DNA of 64,000 nucleotides from the NCBI RefSeq assembly GCF_031769215.1, contig NW_026782663.1, forward strand, positions 62,001 through 126,000, given 5' to 3'. Each line of letters begins with the position of its first letter. The first letter of the stretch is position 1. A program made the position numbers. Below are positions 35,301 to 41,300 of this stretch, piece by piece. The stretch is from Ylistrum balloti. Its lineage: Eukaryota.

Positions 35301-38300
35301 CTATCATCCATTTCTAAAATCCTTTTAGTCAAATTTGTAATTATACCTCTGGTCACTCTGATTGTGTATTGTGGGTCATCTTTAACGGACACAGTTTTGT
35401 CACCATCTTCACCATCTTTTTCCTCATCTGAGTCAGCTGGTCGGATCATGGAAGCTGTGCGGAAGTTCACTTTTGATGAATACGTTGTTTTCTCATGCAC
35501 ATGTAATCCTCTTTGTCGTAGTCTTTCCTGTAGACCAAATATTATGTCTTTTATTTTGGATTAAAAATCAATATTAATTGTTACTGGTTTAAAAATAAAG
35601 CTCATAAATTTTTTTTCCATATTTATACAATATCAATTATCATTAAGGCAATTAAACAAGTGAATTTTAAAAAGAGCAGCATACAAAAGTTGTAACCAAA
35701 TACAGCTTATGGACCAGTGGCATAAAATGCTATGTATATTTCCTTATAAAGCTCCTGCTAATGAGTTTGAGTTAACATGCCTTGTTGTATTTACACACCA
35801 TTTTTCTCAAAAAATACATAACTAATCTTTAAAAAATAAATGGTAGCAGACAACTAAATAATTTTCAAAATGAACATGCTATGCTAAGTGTTTACTTTTG
35901 ATATATTTGAAATAAGATACATGTTTAAGATATTTAATTTGAAAATTTAAGAATATCACCCTCATTTTGTATATACACAGTACCTGCTTTTTTCTTTGTC
36001 GCTCCTTGTCTCGCAAAACAAAGATGTCACTATCTGGGGCCATCTTGAATGGGTTCCCTTGTGTGCCTGGGTCATCCACTGTAAAATATTTTATTAAAAT
36101 AATTTTTTTCATTTTCTGAAATCTGAAATATGTCATTTTAAAATTTGTGATAGATCGCGCTAATTATAGTTCCTAAATAAAATGACTAAATCATGTATTT
36201 CGTTTAAAAAATAAACTTAGTTTCCCATTTGGTGTGTTTATATAAAGCCTTGTAGAGAAGATATTTCTGATATTCTCACAAAATAAAAACAAATATATTT
36301 TTCACAGGCGAAAAAAAGCAAAATATTGTTTAATGTAGTCATCCTTCACATTGGACAGTGAGTATTTCTTAAAAATTCACCAAGCAACAAAACTAGAACT
36401 TCATATTCTGTTTCATTTATTTATCAATGAGAAAAATATATTGGCATTGGTGCATGTGTTAGGTATCATTGTCAATTGTGTTATGAAATAAGATAACAAG
36501 ATTTTATTCTATTCATTATTTTCACTGTAAATGTGGCTCTTTGATCTGTACTTATTTTCACATTGAAATATACAACATAGCTTACAATTATGCTACTTTA
36601 AAATCCATAAAGATATTGGGAAATGGAACAATAAATAAATAAAACAATTAATTTATCAAAAAGCATAGCAATCTCATACCTGACATTATGGAACGACTTG
36701 ATCCAGATTTTGCTGAGTTAGGAAAGGTTACCCGTCCTGATTGTCCAGAAATAGCTTGCCCTAAAACACAAGAATTTACTTAGCAGTCGGTATATTTAGA
36801 TGTGCTTGCAAGCAAAATCGGATTGAAAAATTGTATCACCTAACAAATCAATGCAAAAATAGTAGCAAAATATTTAACAATTCACCATTCACTTGATAAA
36901 ATCCTGCATGTACTCTTGATTCTTAGGAATATTGTTTTGATAAATATTATCATGGACAGATTGTACAGGTTGCCATACAGCATTAGCCTTTGGGGTGATG
37001 CTGTTTAACTTAGTCCAAAGGGTTCTGACTCTATCCGTGAATTTTTTTCTTGGTCGCAATCAATAGATTATTGATCGCGACAGAAAATAAAATTACTAGA
37101 TAGCTAGAATCCTTCTGACCAGTTAAATTCCCATCACGAGGAAGGGTATAATTTGTCGTTCCTTCCTAAGAGTATGAGTCCGTGTTATTGTAGTTAACAT
37201 CATGGAATGACCTTATATTTTTTGTTTTGTTTTCTTTACTCCTTATTTCATCCCCTAATTACTCACGTGATTTTTTGCCTGAAGCATCTGTATCTGGAGA
37301 TCCAGCATTGGACCTGTTGGGTGAGTCAGCCATGATGTTAATTTCGTTTAAGCCAGATCTGTAAACAAGAACAAATTGAAATGAAATTCGTCTCATATCA
37401 TGTACATGTATTAAAGTATTTATATTGCAAAAGCTATTACATGTGAAGTGTATCTTGATATTGTATAGATAGACTCACACTGTAAGCCATACATAACGTC
37501 TCTGTTGTATTATTCACTTAAATGTTTCTACAATTGTACATGTTCAGTAAGGCACACAAATGTGTGCATTTAATGCATGGTGCCGAAGGCGTGTTTCTTT
37601 GACTATTTTGTTCTGTTAATCTGTTTAAATGTTATGGCATTAAGGAGACGATATAAATTAACAACATAACAACAGTTCAGTACATTTTGAATTAGCAAAC
37701 GACGATCGTCAAAGATTACATTTATGTCTCACCTGACAAGTAAGAAACGGGAAAACGATTCCTTGTTTTCCCTTCAGATTCTGTTTACAATTTCCGTGGC
37801 AACATCATCTACGTCTACAAAACGCTTTGAATCGTAACAATTTTAAAACGCTCAGCGGATGTTGATGTCATATACTGGAAGGGTACGTAACTCTTCGTGC
37901 ATTAAGGTAACACATCCTTATTGACATTAAGGACAGACGTGAGCTGTACTACAGTGTACATGTGTACATTTATGGAAAGGAAATGTAATCATTTTAAGCA
38001 AAATATATTTCAATACCGACAGACAGATTAGATAGACCTTAAAATCAACATAAAATTTAGTTAGTTTAGATTTAAAAAACCAAGTTAATTTTTTTATTAA
38101 CTGTTACTAATGAGTTGATTTTTACAAATTAAGTTTAGTTTATTAAACTGAGTAAAGTTAAGTCAATCTCAGTTCAGTGCAGTTTAATACTTGTACCGGA
38201 CTTACAAATGTTCTCTTTAATAGACTGTACATACCCAATCAATGAAATATAGTCATATCTGGCCACGTTTACGTAAAGACTGAATTTGTGCAGGTTTATT

Positions 38301-41300
38301 TCATGTTTGTAAAGGGTTTACATTGCCCGGATGCTTTTTCAGGTAAATTATTCAAAATACCTCTTGTTACAGTTTTATTGAAACATGATATGAAAAATGT
38401 GCCAGTTGTATCCCGGTGTGATTAAAATTGAATTTCATGTTTATTAAAGAATGATTTTTCTTTTGTTAAAAATGACATCATATGTGACATATGCAATGAT
38501 GTGTTAATACTCAGATAGATTATAGAATATGTCATGTGATCATAAAGAGCCGTGTTAAGATATCTGAATTACACGAAAGAAGGGCCAAAACTCCGACAGT
38601 ACACACATTGACGTCATCGAGGTAAATCCTGCTTATATCTCAGAATGACAATTTAGTCACCTACTGATTTTAAATCGATCAGAAAATGAAAGTCTATCAC
38701 TATTACTGATTTGCCATAATGATATGATATGTTCACGATAACGTTGTCAGATTTGAAGGTGAAATGTACTAATTTTAGGCACCTGAAAACCAGAAAATTC
38801 AATTAATTCCTGTCTAATGTCGATTGAAGATTCAAAATAACAACTAGTTAGATGGCGGACAAAAGTTAGATAACTATAGCCATGCAATGTGTAGATGTAG
38901 TGATGATCACTTTGGCTCCAGTAGGTCATAGTGCAGGACATCTAGCCACACACTGAAGAAGATGTCCCCAGTTATACTAATTTAAGTCCCACTTAGATCC
39001 CTAGGTCAATAAAAAATAAAATAAAATAAAGTTGTATGTTTTATATGGTGAGAAATTCGGACTATCGACCACGACCAAAACAAAAATGAAATCGCCGATA
39101 GATAATCAGAACCCTTCGAACTTGATAAATATATCATAATTCACACATGCAACAATTACAAATACCTGACATATGGGCATAATTATATCCTAATTAATAT
39201 GTGATGCTTGAGCAAACATTAATTAAATAAATAATCCCTAACTACCGACCATTTCTGTTAGAAACCGGAACTTTTTTTTTCTATTTTTGTTTTGTTTTTT
39301 TTTTCTGCTTAGAAAAGGTCCTTTCTCAACATTTCGGCACGAATCGTAATAAATAGTTAATGCCATATTGACTTTGTGGAAACTTGTTAAAATATCTGGC
39401 GATTTTTTTTTTTGTAAATTGTCCTCTGACATGCTTGTTTGGTTTTTGTTTGTATTTTTCCTCATTATTGAATTCTGCCTCACATTTATGACATTTGTCC
39501 TTTTTGATCTGGTATAATTGTGTATAGCTAATATATGTCATATCTCCGATCACCATTTGTGATTTACCTTCAGCATAATGAATACCCACATCATAGATAA
39601 ACATTTACTAGAAATCACAATCATGAAATGGAACTGAAATACGCAAATCTAGTATTAAAATCAGCTACACCCAACCCCACTTATCAAGGAAATCAAGATC
39701 TATATTTAGATATGATGATGAGAGATGTGCCATCCGTAGAAGTTCTGAAATCTGAATATTTCCGAATCATTTAATCATCAAAATCGTAACAGTATGACTA
39801 ACACTAAAATACTGTTGATATGTCACGGGCCACGAAAATGTGTGTGTTTCTTTATCCAGCTGAATCATTTGGCACAAACCACACTGATGTACAAAACCAC
39901 ACTAGGAGACATACTTGGCCAATGCAATGTACATTTCAAGTTTAAGGTGAGATTTGTGAGGGCAGTGACCGTCGTGTCAACAAATCAGATAAATTGCGGT
40001 CTTTGGTCATCATGATCTATTTTTAGCATGACAGCCTTTCGCTGGCCTTTTTATTATTGTTGATTACCAGTTACGACTCACTCATCATGTAGAATTAGCT
40101 TCCTACCAGTAAGCTTTATTTTCTGAATCTAGTATTGTCTAGCTTTAAAAAAAAACGCCACTATCTTTTGCCCCTGTTTTTATTCTTTCTCCTTCACTCC
40201 CCAAACCCCTTCTATGATAACACGTCTTACGTCATCACGAAATCCGAACTTCGTAATAGTAGATAAAAGAGGGAGTAGAACCGCGTAGTTTTAAGATCGA
40301 CCTTTCAAGGTTATCGGGAGCTTATCTCGACTAACCGACTTACCACATGTTTATAAACAACCCATTACACTGAAATCGGCATGTCTGACGTAAGGCTCAT
40401 CGTCAAGAATGCTCGCCAGGTGGTGCAGGTGAGGAAGTACCCCGTCCTGAAGGTATGTGGAGAAGGGATGCAACGGGTAGACACACTGCAAGAGGAAGGT
40501 GGAGACGGGATCAGTGTCGTGTCAAACAGGTACTTTATCGGTTAGAGGGGTCAGACGGTTAAACTATCAAATATCAAGTGAATCACTGGCGTAACTAAAA
40601 TTCAGGAAATTATTCGGTTTTTTTTTTGCATTTTCATATTCAACAGCTTAACTTATCAAAACTGCGCTCCTTTCACAATTTCTTTAGGTAATATAAAGCT
40701 GTGACAGATACTTTATTTGTCTTGTATACGAGTCACTTTCCTTGAGTTGTGTCTGTAGATGTTTCATCAGAGGAAAATATCCCTTTCATTTGGTTATTGA
40801 CTTGAATATGATAATTTTATAACACGTTTTACAACAGTTCAGAGTTTTTTGGAGATCTGTACTTACTTAACTTGAATTTCAATATCGTTTATCATTTCAA
40901 TGACAGCTGTTGCATAACGTGTTCTTTTCATTATTTCAAATTTTGAATTCAGTTGTGGAAAGATCATATTTATTGGTAAAGAATCAGAGCGGAAACAGAA
41001 ATACATCGAGAGTGAGAGTACCCGTATCATAGATGCTTCTGGGAAATGCGTGTTGCCAGGTAATGTAAACATTCCAGTGACGACAAATGTTGCTTTCTTC
41101 AGACGACAGTACAGGACGTAACTGCTAAGGTAACGTGATAAAAACAGCCAAATACTGCATGTAACAAATGAACTTCATTTTAAACGTACCAAAAAGGACC
41201 CATGGGAAGTGTAAATCACCGGCCATTGATGATTATATCCTCACTGCTATTGCTGGAATAAATCTGCTACATGTATTTTTGCTGTATTTGGCAATGACGG

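What the first reader, a model, noticed from the sequence alone, without database searches (positions are those of the whole stretch)
37333..40381. Head-to-head CFAP100/CCDC38-AMDHD1 pair mirrors the human CCDC38-AMDHD1 arrangement
Seen: the DUF4200-family gene (-) and AMDHD1 (+) diverge from a shared interval of about 2.6 kb with no gene between them. Recalled, not looked up: human CCDC38, the paralog of CFAP100, lies immediately head-to-head with AMDHD1 at 12q23. Inference: this divergent pair may date from the protostome-deuterostome ancestor. That would imply a shared regulatory constraint between a ciliary axoneme gene and a histidine-catabolism enzyme, and that CCDC38 kept the ancestral locus after vertebrate duplication.
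Basis: partly seen in the sequence, partly recalled or inferred. Interest (0 to 1): 0.65.

Follow-up and report, generated by a model that had tools for sequence, protein, structure and literature searches.

The report
Ancient head-to-head cilia/histidine gene pair
In this scallop sequence a cilium-motility gene and a histidine-breakdown enzyme gene start about 3 kb apart and point away from each other, and indirect evidence suggests the same two genes are also neighbours in mussels, acorn worms and a sea anemone, so it looks like one more very old conserved gene neighbourhood rather than a new kind of system.

Summary
The window is Ylistrum balloti (scallop). CFAP100-like (minus strand, ATG 37333, stop 23560) and AMDHD1/imidazolonepropionase (plus strand, ATG 40381, stop 44898) diverge from a 3,047-bp spacer, not the ~2.6 kb stated. 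No Pfam, Rfam or tRNA match lies in the spacer.

- Of 18 species compared, 8 have the two proteins within 11 accession numbers of each other. These are scallops, mussels, three hemichordates and Nematostella.
- 3 species are 41-59 apart.
- 6 are far apart or on different contigs (four sea urchins, Solemya, Mercenaria).
- 1 is uninformative.

A dog gene list gives the order SNRPF, CCDC38, AMDHD1, HAL. The human head-to-head orientation remains recalled only.

However, a shared regulatory constraint is not shown, and no CFAP100/CCDC38 tree could be built.

A lead: mammalian CFAP100 lies near UROC1, so histidine-catabolism genes sit next to both paralogues.

Verdict: a new member of a known kind (conserved ancestral microsyntenic pair), of moderate interest.

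The parts
23560..37333 (-). CFAP100-like gene (coding span, 15 coding exons, stop codon 23562-23560)
   Evidence: tblastn of P0007 (XP_060082227.1) is 100% identical within the exons. The 3' end was translated. P0007 matches CFAP100 chains of axoneme structures at E 3.3e-126 (8j07_j4) and 3.8e-90 (8glv_AW).
37267..37333 (-). CFAP100 coding exon 1 (MADSPNRSNAGSPDTDASGKKS + 1 nt), followed by a GTGAGT donor at 37266-37261
   Evidence: Sequence read and tblastn. The same N-terminus, with one to two substitutions, occurs in the other four proteins fetched (three named scallop species and one unnamed source).
34348..34845 (-). Two exons encoding the DUF4200 domain (ORFs 34681-34845 and 34348-34569)
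   Evidence: Pfam PF13863 at E 1.8e-12 and 2.2e-14, both above the gathering score.
37334..40380 (.). Shared 5' spacer between the two start codons, 3,047 bp, with no recognised gene
   Evidence: 0 of 30 ORFs with a Pfam match. 0 Rfam matches. 0 tRNAs. Only trivial repeats.
37790..37803 (+). X-box-like (RFX-type) sequence ATTTCCGTGGCAAC, 457 bp upstream of the CFAP100 ATG; a lead only
   Evidence: It is the only match in the spacer to the degenerate consensus RYYNYYNNRRNRAC (consensus recalled). Window-wide there are 39 matches against 29.3 +/- 6.6 expected, so there is no enrichment. A tighter pattern gave 3 matches against 0.74 expected, but I wrote that pattern after seeing the site.
38609..38616 (.). 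Palindromic CRE-like octamer TGACGTCA in mid-spacer; a lead only
   Evidence: TKACGTMA gives 14 matches in the window against 3.56 +/- 1.98 expected. Three of them lie in the spacer, at 38269, 38609 and 40227. The test was post hoc.
40227..40234 (.). CRE-like octamer TTACGTCA, 147 bp upstream of the AMDHD1 ATG, in the most CpG-rich 200-bp bin of the region; a lead only
   Evidence: CpG observed/expected is 1.5 in bin 40201-40400 against a window mean of 0.61. The bins are small and noisy.
40381..44898 (+). AMDHD1 / imidazolonepropionase gene (coding span, 8 exons at about 40381-40527, 40948-41061, 41767-41832, 42384-42662, 43173-43397, 43827-44045, 44317-44478 and 44809-44898)
   Evidence: tblastn of P0038. 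hutI TIGR01224 matches the exons in collinear order. P0038 matches Bacillus subtilis HutI 2bb0_A at E 2.4e-77. The stop codon was confirmed.
41767..41832 (+). Short AMDHD1 exon carrying the H-x-H metal-binding motif (GFVDAHTHPVWAGDRVHEFAMK)
   Evidence: tblastn and six-frame search. It aligns with 'dphth' of 2bb0_A.
44098..44225 (.). Run of 128 N inside the AMDHD1 intron between the exons ending at about 44045 and starting at 44317; left untouched
   Evidence: All 430 residues of P0038 map outside it.

Best explanation
This is a real, divergently transcribed pair of unrelated genes in a scallop. One is CFAP100, the MIA1 subunit that regulates inner-arm dynein I1 in motile cilia. The other is AMDHD1, imidazolonepropionase, the third enzyme of histidine catabolism. 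Their start codons are separated by a 3-kb gene-free spacer.

Shown: the arrangement in the window and the identity of both genes.

Shown by proxy only: the two genes are close neighbours in mussels, hemichordates and Nematostella, are near each other in a crinoid, and are apart in sea urchins, Solemya and Mercenaria.

Inferred: the linkage dates at least to the cnidarian-bilaterian ancestor. In vertebrates the position next to AMDHD1 is held by CCDC38, the paralogue of CFAP100, most likely after the vertebrate genome duplications.

Inferred, and less certain (about 0.55 against about 0.3 for neutral survival): the pair persisted because proximal regulatory DNA of the two genes is shared or interleaved in the short 5'-5' spacer, so breaks there are selected against. 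That is the general explanation given for conserved 5'-5' microsyntenic pairs. Two separate core promoters seem more likely than one classical bidirectional promoter.
For: Gene models.
- They map at 100% identity to public Ylistrum balloti proteins.
- DUF4200 and hutI were found exon by exon.
- P0007 aligns over its full length with Chlamydomonas FAP100 and human CFAP100 in axoneme structures.
- P0038 aligns with solved HutI with the H-x-H, H-x-D-E and D-F-N-P positions kept.
- The spacer is empty by Pfam, Rfam and tRNA scans.

Calibration of the proxy.

Survey of 18 species (contig lengths).
- Difference of 11 or less in 8 species:
  - Ylistrum: 2
  - Pecten maximus: 6
  - Mytilus coruscus: 1, same 1,595,712-bp contig
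  - M. edulis: 1, same 444,470-bp scaffold
  - Saccoglossus: 7, same 468,862-bp scaffold
  - Ptychodera: 3
  - Glandiceps: 11
  - Nematostella: 2, plus consecutive UniProt accessions A7RX26/A7RX27 and the same 1,275,895-bp scaffold in the older assembly
- Difference of 41-59 in 3 species: Mizuhopecten (same 2,998,220-bp scaffold), M. californianus and Antedon.

Vertebrates. The dog gene order is SNRPF, CCDC38, AMDHD1, HAL (PMC13332154, passage).

General model. Irimia et al. 2012 report that 54.8% of conserved ancestral pairs are 5'-5', against 26.7% of controls, and attribute many of them to shared cis-regulation (PMC3514665, passages).
Against: - Outside the window, adjacency rests on accession numbers and contig lengths, not coordinates. 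Orientation was seen in no other species.
- 6 of the 18 species show separation: Lytechinus variegatus (difference about 1,185), L. pictus (336), Diadema setosum (3,692), D. antillarum (different contigs), Solemya (762) and Mercenaria (different chromosomes). Any constraint is therefore dispensable.
- Species were those that happened to appear in both top-120 lists, so amphioxus, tunicates, annelids, brachiopods, gastropods, cephalopods, ecdysozoans, sponges and ctenophores were not sampled for both genes.
- The human orientation is recalled only.
- No CFAP100/CCDC38 tree was built.
- 3,047 bp between start codons is longer than the <1 kb signature of bidirectional promoters quoted in PMC3514665.
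- X-box-type sites are not enriched.
- The two functions are unrelated, and no co-expression evidence was seen.
Confidence: 0.6

Rival explanations
1. The linkage is ancient but neutral. The pair is a chance survivor of gene-order scrambling. It persists mainly in slowly rearranging genomes and because a 3-kb spacer is a small target for breakpoints. No regulatory coupling exists.
For: - The pair is lost in 6 of the 18 species compared, including all four sea urchins and two of the bivalve lineages.
- The functions are unrelated.
- The two CpG-richer patches lie about 2.4 kb apart, not in one block.
- No motif is enriched in the spacer.
- In sea urchins and Solemya the genes stay on one chromosome, as ordinary conserved macrosynteny would give.
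Against: Retention appears in four deeply separated lineages: cnidarian, hemichordate, pteriomorph bivalve and vertebrate. Irimia et al. 2012 argue that such multi-clade pairs exceed neutral expectation and are enriched for the 5'-5' orientation.
Confidence: 0.3
2. A classical bidirectional promoter drives coordinated expression of both genes.
For: The genes are head to head with nothing recognisable between them.
Against: The start codons are 3,047 bp apart, and the AT-rich middle of the spacer has low CpG. One gene serves motile cilia and the other amino-acid catabolism. The one paper that mentions both genes reports them changing in opposite directions in chicken oviduct. In chicken, however, the neighbour of AMDHD1 would be CCDC38, so this says little (PMC13744850, passages).
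Confidence: 0.07
3. The juxtaposition arose independently in scallops and vertebrates and the resemblance is coincidence.
For: The vertebrate neighbour is CCDC38, not CFAP100 itself. The orientation in human is only recalled.
Against: Near-consecutive accessions or shared small scaffolds occur in mussels, three hemichordates and Nematostella. Chance proximity of two given genes in several genomes is very improbable.
Confidence: 0.03

Closest known systems
Vertebrate CCDC38-AMDHD1-HAL locus (human 12q23.1, dog chr15)
   Same: A DUF4200/FAP100-family gene lies directly beside AMDHD1. This follows from the dog order SNRPF, CCDC38, AMDHD1, HAL and the human band 12q23.1. The divergent orientation is recalled, not checked.
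   Different: The vertebrate neighbour is the paralogue CCDC38, whereas the scallop gene is the CFAP100 orthologue (E 3.3e-126 to the human CFAP100 chain). No HAL was found in the scallop window: 0 of 107 ORFs in the unassigned regions had any Pfam match.
Conserved ancestral microsyntenic pairs (CAMPs) of Irimia et al. 2012, e.g. HSPE1-HSPD1
   Same: An unrelated gene pair in 5'-5' orientation with a short spacer, apparently kept across cnidarians, deuterostomes and lophotrochozoans.
   Different: The main text of that paper names none of AMDHD1, CCDC38 or CCDC37. Here the conservation rests on proxies.
Bidirectional-promoter gene pairs
   Same: Head-to-head arrangement with no gene between.
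   Different: The spacer between start codons is 3,047 bp, against the <1 kb signature. Transcription starts and co-expression are unknown.
Bacterial hut operons (hutH-hutU-hutI)
   Same: The enzyme is a HutI orthologue (E 2.4e-77 to 2bb0_A). In mammals, histidine-catabolism genes sit beside both FAP100-family paralogues: AMDHD1 and HAL by CCDC38, and UROC1 near CFAP100.
   Different: There is no operon. The scallop window holds only the hutI-type gene. Any animal 'hut cluster' is a hypothesis.

Membership tests
CFAP100 / FAP100 (MIA1) orthologue group, DUF4200 family | DUF4200 (PF13863) domain | tested here: met
   Two consecutive exons match profile positions 14-66 and 67-119 at 48.1 and 54.3 bits, against a cut-off of 29.7.
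CFAP100 / FAP100 (MIA1) orthologue group, DUF4200 family | Full-length similarity to CFAP100 proteins placed in axoneme structures, stronger than to the CFAP73 branch | tested here: met
   P0007 against 8j07_j4 CFAP100: E 3.3e-126. Against 8glv_AW CFAP100: E 3.8e-90, aligned over query residues 49-580. Against 8glv_AV CFAP73: only E 4.6e-09.
CFAP100 / FAP100 (MIA1) orthologue group, DUF4200 family | Placement relative to CCDC38 in a gene tree (pro-orthologue of both, or CFAP100-specific) | not tested
   No search returned a CCDC38 sequence. The top 120 named hits are all CFAP100/CCDC37. The 150 representatives are unnamed and I did not use them.
CFAP100 / FAP100 (MIA1) orthologue group, DUF4200 family | Axonemal location and complex formation with CFAP73 | not testable with these tools
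   This needs proteomics or imaging of scallop cilia or sperm.
Imidazolonepropionase (HutI / AMDHD1) | Match to the hutI equivalog model along its length | tested here: met
   TIGR01224 matches at profile positions 11-44, 59-155, 169-228, 228-303 and 302-359 on successive exons. The four strong matches have E from 6.3e-37 to 6.1e-15. Each is below the whole-protein cut-off, as expected for pieces. P0038 against 2bb0_A: E 2.4e-77 over residues 51-427.
Imidazolonepropionase (HutI / AMDHD1) | Metal-binding H-x-H, later His and Asp of the amidohydrolase fold | tested here: met
   'dahth', 'fhgde' and 'sdfnp' align with 'dphth', 'ihade' and 'tdfnp' of 2bb0_A. Which residues bind the metal is recalled, not taken from a call.
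Imidazolonepropionase (HutI / AMDHD1) | Enzymatic activity on 4-imidazolone-5-propionate | not testable with these tools
   This needs an enzyme assay.
Conserved ancestral microsyntenic pair (CAMP-type) | The two orthologue groups are neighbours in several distant animal clades | tested here: met
   By proxy only. The accession difference is 11 or less in 8 of 18 species, spanning Bivalvia, Hemichordata and Cnidaria. It is 41-59 in 3 species and far in 6, and 1 species is uninformative. The dog order places CCDC38 next to AMDHD1.
Conserved ancestral microsyntenic pair (CAMP-type) | Conserved relative orientation (5'-5') | tested here: inconclusive
   Seen directly only in this window. In human it is recalled only. 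In cattle-hybrid and frog gene models an N-terminal LSM (SNRPF-type) domain is fused to AMDHD1. This indicates only that an LSM-domain gene, presumably SNRPF, lies upstream on AMDHD1's strand.
Conserved ancestral microsyntenic pair (CAMP-type) | Retention above neutral expectation | not testable with these tools
   This needs genome-wide gene orders of many animals and a permutation test. No eukaryotic genome collection was available.
Bidirectional-promoter pair | Divergent transcription starts less than about 1 kb apart | tested here: inconclusive
   The start codons are 3,047 bp apart. The 5' UTRs and transcription starts are unknown.
Bidirectional-promoter pair | Correlated expression of the two genes | not testable with these tools
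   No scallop expression data were available.

The most novel reading that the evidence does not exclude
The CFAP100-AMDHD1 pair may be the visible remnant of an ancestral animal histidine-catabolism neighbourhood, with HAL, UROC1 and AMDHD1 lying beside the FAP100-family gene. On this reading the vertebrate genome duplications split it by reciprocal loss. One copy kept CCDC38-AMDHD1-HAL (12q23.1). The other kept CFAP100-ZXDC-UROC1 (3q21.3).

Basis from calls:
- The dog gene order.
- Human CFAP100 lies about 30 kb from ZXDC (PMC5634485).
- ZXDC, UROC1, ALDH1L1 and SLC41A3 fall in one cattle QTL (PMC10464233).
- ALDH1L1 is at 3q21.3 and ALDH1L2 at 12q23.3.

Against it so far: no HAL- or urocanase-type exon lies in the 64-kb scallop window.
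Probability: 0.3. Interest if true: 0.65.

Novelty: new member of a known kind. Interest (0 to 1): 0.4.

Why it matters
Hundreds of ancient gene pairs are known to have stayed together across animals, and most lack an explanation. This pair is clean: both genes are single-copy, strongly conserved and easy to recognise. It may reach back to the cnidarian-bilaterian ancestor, it has been broken in several identifiable lineages, and it has a vertebrate duplicate.

That combination gives natural experiments. Retained and broken lineages can be compared, and so can the CCDC38 and CFAP100 loci. Such comparisons could test whether 5'-5' microsynteny reflects shared regulation or neutral survival.

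If the wider reading holds, it would also be a rare case of a metabolic-pathway gene neighbourhood in animals that was partitioned by whole-genome duplication.

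Tried and rejected
- RFX/X-box site as evidence of a ciliary promoter. The site at 37790-37803 looks good by eye. However, the degenerate consensus is not enriched (39 matches against 29.3 +/- 6.6 expected), and I wrote my tighter pattern after seeing the site. It is kept as a lead only.
- CRE-like octamers. These are enriched window-wide (14 against 3.56 expected), with 3 in the spacer. The test was post hoc and the counts are small, so this too is a lead only.
- A hidden gene or mobile element in the spacer. 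A 92-aa ORF at 39329-39604 looked integrase-like by eye, but it had no Pfam match, as was the case for all 30 ORFs tested. No repeats of note were found.
- My first guesses for the H-x-H exon (ORFs 41672-41827 and 41736-42041) were in the wrong frames and gave no hutI match. tblastn then found the real exon at 41767-41832.
- HAL or urocanase in the window. 0 of 107 ORFs of 55 aa or more in the unassigned regions had any Pfam match at E<=0.001.
- CFAP100/CCDC38 tree. The representative search gave 2,696 hits at E<=0.001, but the best 150 listed are all unnamed proteins at E<1e-54. I did not use them because their origin cannot be told. The atlas search named only CFAP100/DUF4200 clusters. No CCDC38 chain matched in the PDB at E<=0.001.
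- Literature.
  - Two searches were badly specified, with min_terms 2, and returned unrelated papers.
  - 'CCDC38'+'AMDHD1' gave 5 papers, none about synteny.
  - 'CFAP100'+'AMDHD1' gave 1 unrelated paper.
  - 'AMDHD1'+'UROC1'+'gene cluster' gave 0 papers.

Full report
SOURCE AND METHOD

The window is from the scallop Ylistrum balloti, or something indistinguishable from it.
- An exon-by-exon search with the ORF 35294-35560 (minus strand) returned 37 proteins. All carry DUF4200 and all named ones are CFAP100/CCDC37-like. Scallop proteins matched at 98-100% over the exon.
- The Ylistrum entry P0007 (XP_060082227.1, 583 aa) then mapped onto the window at 100% identity within every exon.
- A second exon-by-exon search with 42372-42662 (plus strand) returned 3,430 proteins at E<=0.001. 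Of the best 120 listed, the named ones are imidazolonepropionases (most called 'probable' or 'putative'), apart from some 'hypothetical' or 'unnamed' entries. The top hit is the Ylistrum protein P0038 (XP_060082225.1, 430 aa).
- Both proteins are recorded on a contig of 950,488 bp.

I searched the window's gene models exon by exon and left out the step of joining window exons. Where a full-length query was needed I used the public proteins P0007 and P0038 that those searches returned. Nothing in the window or in the hits I used was taken for human. The run of N at 44098-44225 was left as it is.

THE OBSERVATION

CFAP100-like occupies the minus strand.
- The start codon is at 37333.
- Exon 1 (37333-37267) is followed by a GTGAGT donor.
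- 15 exon segments run down to 23563, and the stop codon is at 23562-23560.
- The four other proteins fetched (three named scallops and one unnamed source) share the same N-terminus with one to two substitutions. This supports 37333 as the conserved start.

AMDHD1 occupies the plus strand.
- The start codon is at 40381.
- There are 8 exons, and the stop codon is at 44896-44898.
- A short exon at 41767-41832 encodes the H-x-H motif.
- The N run lies in an intron, and all 430 residues of P0038 map outside it.

The spacer between the start codons is 3,047 bp.

Nothing recognisable lies in the spacer.
- 0 of 30 ORFs of 35 aa or more have a Pfam match at E<=0.1.
- There are 0 Rfam families and 0 tRNAs in the whole window.
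- There are no tandem or interspersed repeats beyond short low-complexity runs.

By itself, one divergent pair is unremarkable.

WHAT THE GENES ARE

CFAP100.
- Two consecutive exons match DUF4200 above Pfam's gathering score.
- P0007 matches CFAP100 chains in axoneme structures: 8j07_j4 at E 3.3e-126, 9fqr_Hv 'coiled-coil domain containing 37' at E 1.9e-112, and 8glv_AW at E 3.8e-90 over nearly its full length.
- The CFAP73 chain of 8glv scores only E 4.6e-09.
- It is therefore the CFAP100 (FAP100/MIA1) orthologue, not merely a DUF4200 protein.

AMDHD1.
- Its exons match NCBIfam hutI (TIGR01224) in collinear order, in 5 of 9 ORFs tested.
- P0038 matches Bacillus subtilis HutI 2bb0_A at E 2.4e-77, with the H-x-H, H-x-D-E and D-F-N-P stretches aligned.

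Neighbours in the window.
- An LLPH-like gene on the plus strand at about 8.4-10.1 kb (Pfam LLPH on two exons).
- An ACTR8-like gene on the minus strand at about 12.6-19.6 kb (E 1.1e-13 to the ARP8 chain 4fo0_A).
- A gene with an LDL-receptor class A domain on the minus strand at about 55.8-59.2 kb.
- The remaining regions gave 0 Pfam matches in 107 ORFs, so no HAL- or urocanase-type gene lies in the window.

IS THE PAIR OLD?

No eukaryotic genome collection was available, so I used two proxies from the protein database. One is whether the two proteins of a species are recorded on a contig of identical length. The other is how far apart their accession numbers lie within one annotation. In Ylistrum, where adjacency is seen directly, the accessions differ by 2 and the contig lengths agree. 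This calibrates the proxy.

The species were those for which both proteins happened to appear in the lists or in their clusters. This is not a designed sample. Of the 18 species compared:

Accession difference of 11 or less, 8 species:
- Ylistrum, 2
- Pecten maximus, 6
- Mytilus coruscus, 1, CAC5414101/102 on one 1.6-Mb contig
- M. edulis, 1, CAG2206638/639 on one 444-kb scaffold
- Saccoglossus kowalevskii, 7, on one 469-kb scaffold
- Ptychodera flava, 3
- Glandiceps talaboti, 11
- Nematostella vectensis, 2, with UniProt A7RX26/A7RX27 consecutive and one 1.28-Mb scaffold in the older assembly

Accession difference of 41-59, 3 species:
- Mizuhopecten yessoensis, on one 3.0-Mb scaffold
- Mytilus californianus
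- The crinoid Antedon mediterranea

Far apart or on different sequences, 6 species:
- Lytechinus variegatus, about 1,185
- L. pictus, 336
- Diadema setosum, 3,692
- D. antillarum, different contigs
- Solemya velum, 762
- Mercenaria mercenaria, different chromosomes

Uninformative, 1 species: Ostrea edulis, where the proteins are on the same chromosome but the accessions come from different releases.

Argopecten irradians, M. trossulus and M. galloprovincialis share a chromosome length for both genes but were not looked up further.

Two given genes falling within about ten accession numbers of each other by chance is improbable in any one genome. I estimate the order of 1 in 1,000 or less, given annotations of tens of thousands of proteins; this is my estimate, not a computed value. 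Recurrence in bivalves, hemichordates and a cnidarian therefore argues for inheritance. The simplest reading is that the two genes were already neighbours in the cnidarian-bilaterian ancestor, and that the linkage was broken in echinoids and in some bivalve lineages.

The proxies do not show strict adjacency or orientation anywhere but in the window.

THE VERTEBRATE SIDE

- A table of dog chromosome 15 segments lists genes in the order NTN4, SNRPF, CCDC38, AMDHD1, HAL, LTA4H, ELK3 (PMC13332154, passage).
- Two other dog studies place both genes in one interval (PMC6834583 and PMC12684936, passages).
- A human study groups AMDHD1, HAL and CCDC38 at 12q23.1 (PMC12398375, passage).
- No call showed that CCDC38 and AMDHD1 are transcribed divergently in human. 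I also recall it that way, but it remains unchecked.
- A side observation fits. Two public gene models (P0112 from a cattle hybrid and P0089 from a frog) carry an N-terminal LSM domain fused to AMDHD1. This implies that an LSM-domain gene, presumably SNRPF, lies upstream on AMDHD1's strand.

PARALOGY AND DUPLICATION

- Yamamoto et al. 2013 state that FAP100 has two potential human homologues, CCDC37 and CCDC38 (PMC3628515, passage).
- PMC6702985 lists CFAP73, CCDC38 and CFAP100 as paralogues of CCDC42 (passage).
- I could not date the duplication. The 120 best named relatives of P0007, which cover molluscs, nemerteans, brachiopods, a bryozoan, an annelid, echinoderms, hemichordates, amphioxus, a tunicate and cnidarians, are all CFAP100-type. 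No CCDC38 sequence was returned by any search.
- Human CFAP100 lies about 30 kb from ZXDC on chromosome 3 (PMC5634485, passage). ALDH1L1 at 3q21.3 and ALDH1L2 at 12q23.3 form another paralogue pair across the same two regions (PMC11311893, table).
- This fits, but does not prove, an origin of CCDC38 and CFAP100 in the vertebrate genome duplications, with AMDHD1 retained only beside CCDC38.

A WIDER LEAD

In cattle, ZXDC shares one short QTL interval with UROC1, ALDH1L1, SLC41A3, CHST13 and TXNRD3 (PMC10464233, passages). Urocanase, the second enzyme of histidine catabolism, therefore lies in the close neighbourhood of CFAP100, while the first and third enzymes (HAL and AMDHD1) lie beside CCDC38. 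This suggests an ancestral neighbourhood of histidine-catabolism genes around the FAP100-family gene, later divided between the two duplicates. The scallop window neither supports nor excludes this beyond about 20 kb on either side. The library held no paper with 'AMDHD1', 'UROC1' and 'gene cluster' together.

HOW IT MOST LIKELY WORKS

The two genes are separate transcription units.
- CpG observed/expected is higher in two patches: 37601-38000 at about 1.2, and 40201-40400 at 1.5. The window mean is 0.61. The middle of the spacer is AT-rich. This hints at two promoters, but the bins are small.
- An X-box-like site lies 457 bp upstream of CFAP100, and CRE-like octamers lie in the spacer. These are leads without statistical support.

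Irimia et al. 2012 found conserved ancestral pairs to be enriched for the 5'-5' orientation and for short spacers, and explained many by shared cis-regulation (PMC3514665, passages). On that basis I favour selection against breaks in a spacer that holds shared or interleaved proximal regulatory DNA, at about 0.55. Neutral survival in slowly rearranging genomes is the main rival, at about 0.3. A single classical bidirectional promoter is unlikely. The losses in six species show that the arrangement is dispensable.

NOVELTY AND LIMITS

This is a new member of a known kind, a conserved ancestral microsyntenic pair.
- No paper in the searched library discusses the pair: searches returned no paper on synteny, and searches were badly specified and uninformative.

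What stayed unchecked:
- coordinates and strands in every genome but this one;
- the human orientation;
- amphioxus, tunicates, annelids, brachiopods, gastropods, cephalopods, ecdysozoans, sponges and ctenophores, for which only one of the two proteins, or neither, was listed;
- the CFAP100/CCDC38 tree;
- non-coding conservation in the spacer;
- expression.

Noticed in passing
window 44098-44225: A run of 128 N lies inside an AMDHD1 intron. It interrupts no coding exon of P0038. I left it untouched.
   Followed up: yes
proteins P0112 and P0089: Public AMDHD1 models from a cattle hybrid (445 aa) and a frog (235 aa) carry an N-terminal LSM domain (residues 10-72 and 10-65). They look like SNRPF-AMDHD1 read-through or mis-merged models. 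This implies an LSM-domain gene (presumably SNRPF) upstream on the same strand as AMDHD1 in those genomes.
   Followed up: partly
literature: Mammalian CFAP100 lies about 30 kb from ZXDC. ZXDC shares a short cattle QTL interval with UROC1 (urocanase), ALDH1L1 and SLC41A3. Histidine-catabolism genes therefore flank both FAP100-family paralogues: AMDHD1 and HAL by CCDC38, and UROC1 by CFAP100.
   Followed up: partly
window 8444-10075 (+): LLPH-like gene. Two exon ORFs match Pfam LLPH at profile positions 1-44 and 76-126.
   Followed up: partly
window about 12640-19600 (-): Actin-related protein 8 (ACTR8)-like gene, directly downstream of the 3' end of CFAP100. The exon ORF 14610-14978 matches the ARP8 chain 4fo0_A at E 1.1e-13. 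Pfam gave no match for six of its exon ORFs.
   Followed up: partly
window about 55770-59200 (-): A gene with an LDL-receptor class A domain (57161-57439, E 8.2e-05, just under the Pfam cut-off). It also has a 255-aa open exon rich in Ser, Glu and Asp (55777-56541) with no family match. The ORF 57856-58281 had no PDB match.
   Followed up: partly
window 41932-42102: A G-rich minisatellite (period 27/53, 70-74% matches) lies in the AMDHD1 intron between the H-x-H exon and the next exon. It probably accounts for the long spurious ORFs there and may account for the positive GC skew at 40-44 kb.
   Followed up: no
window 51075-51369 and 52160-52244: Trinucleotide microsatellites (GTA/AGT units, 28-40 copies) lie in the gene-poor stretch downstream of AMDHD1. 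The one at 52160-52244 produces a poly-Leu ORF.
   Followed up: no
window-wide: CRE-like octamers T[G/T]ACGT[A/C]A occur 14 times against 3.56 +/- 1.98 expected from shuffles, and 0 of 100 shuffles reach 14. This is an unexplained four-fold excess in a CpG-depleted sequence (CpG observed/expected 0.61).
   Followed up: no
Mytilus edulis cluster: AMDHD1 of M. edulis is annotated as several fragments: 247 aa and 269 aa on the 444-kb scaffold, and 205 aa on another scaffold. This suggests split models or haplotype duplicates in that assembly.
   Followed up: no
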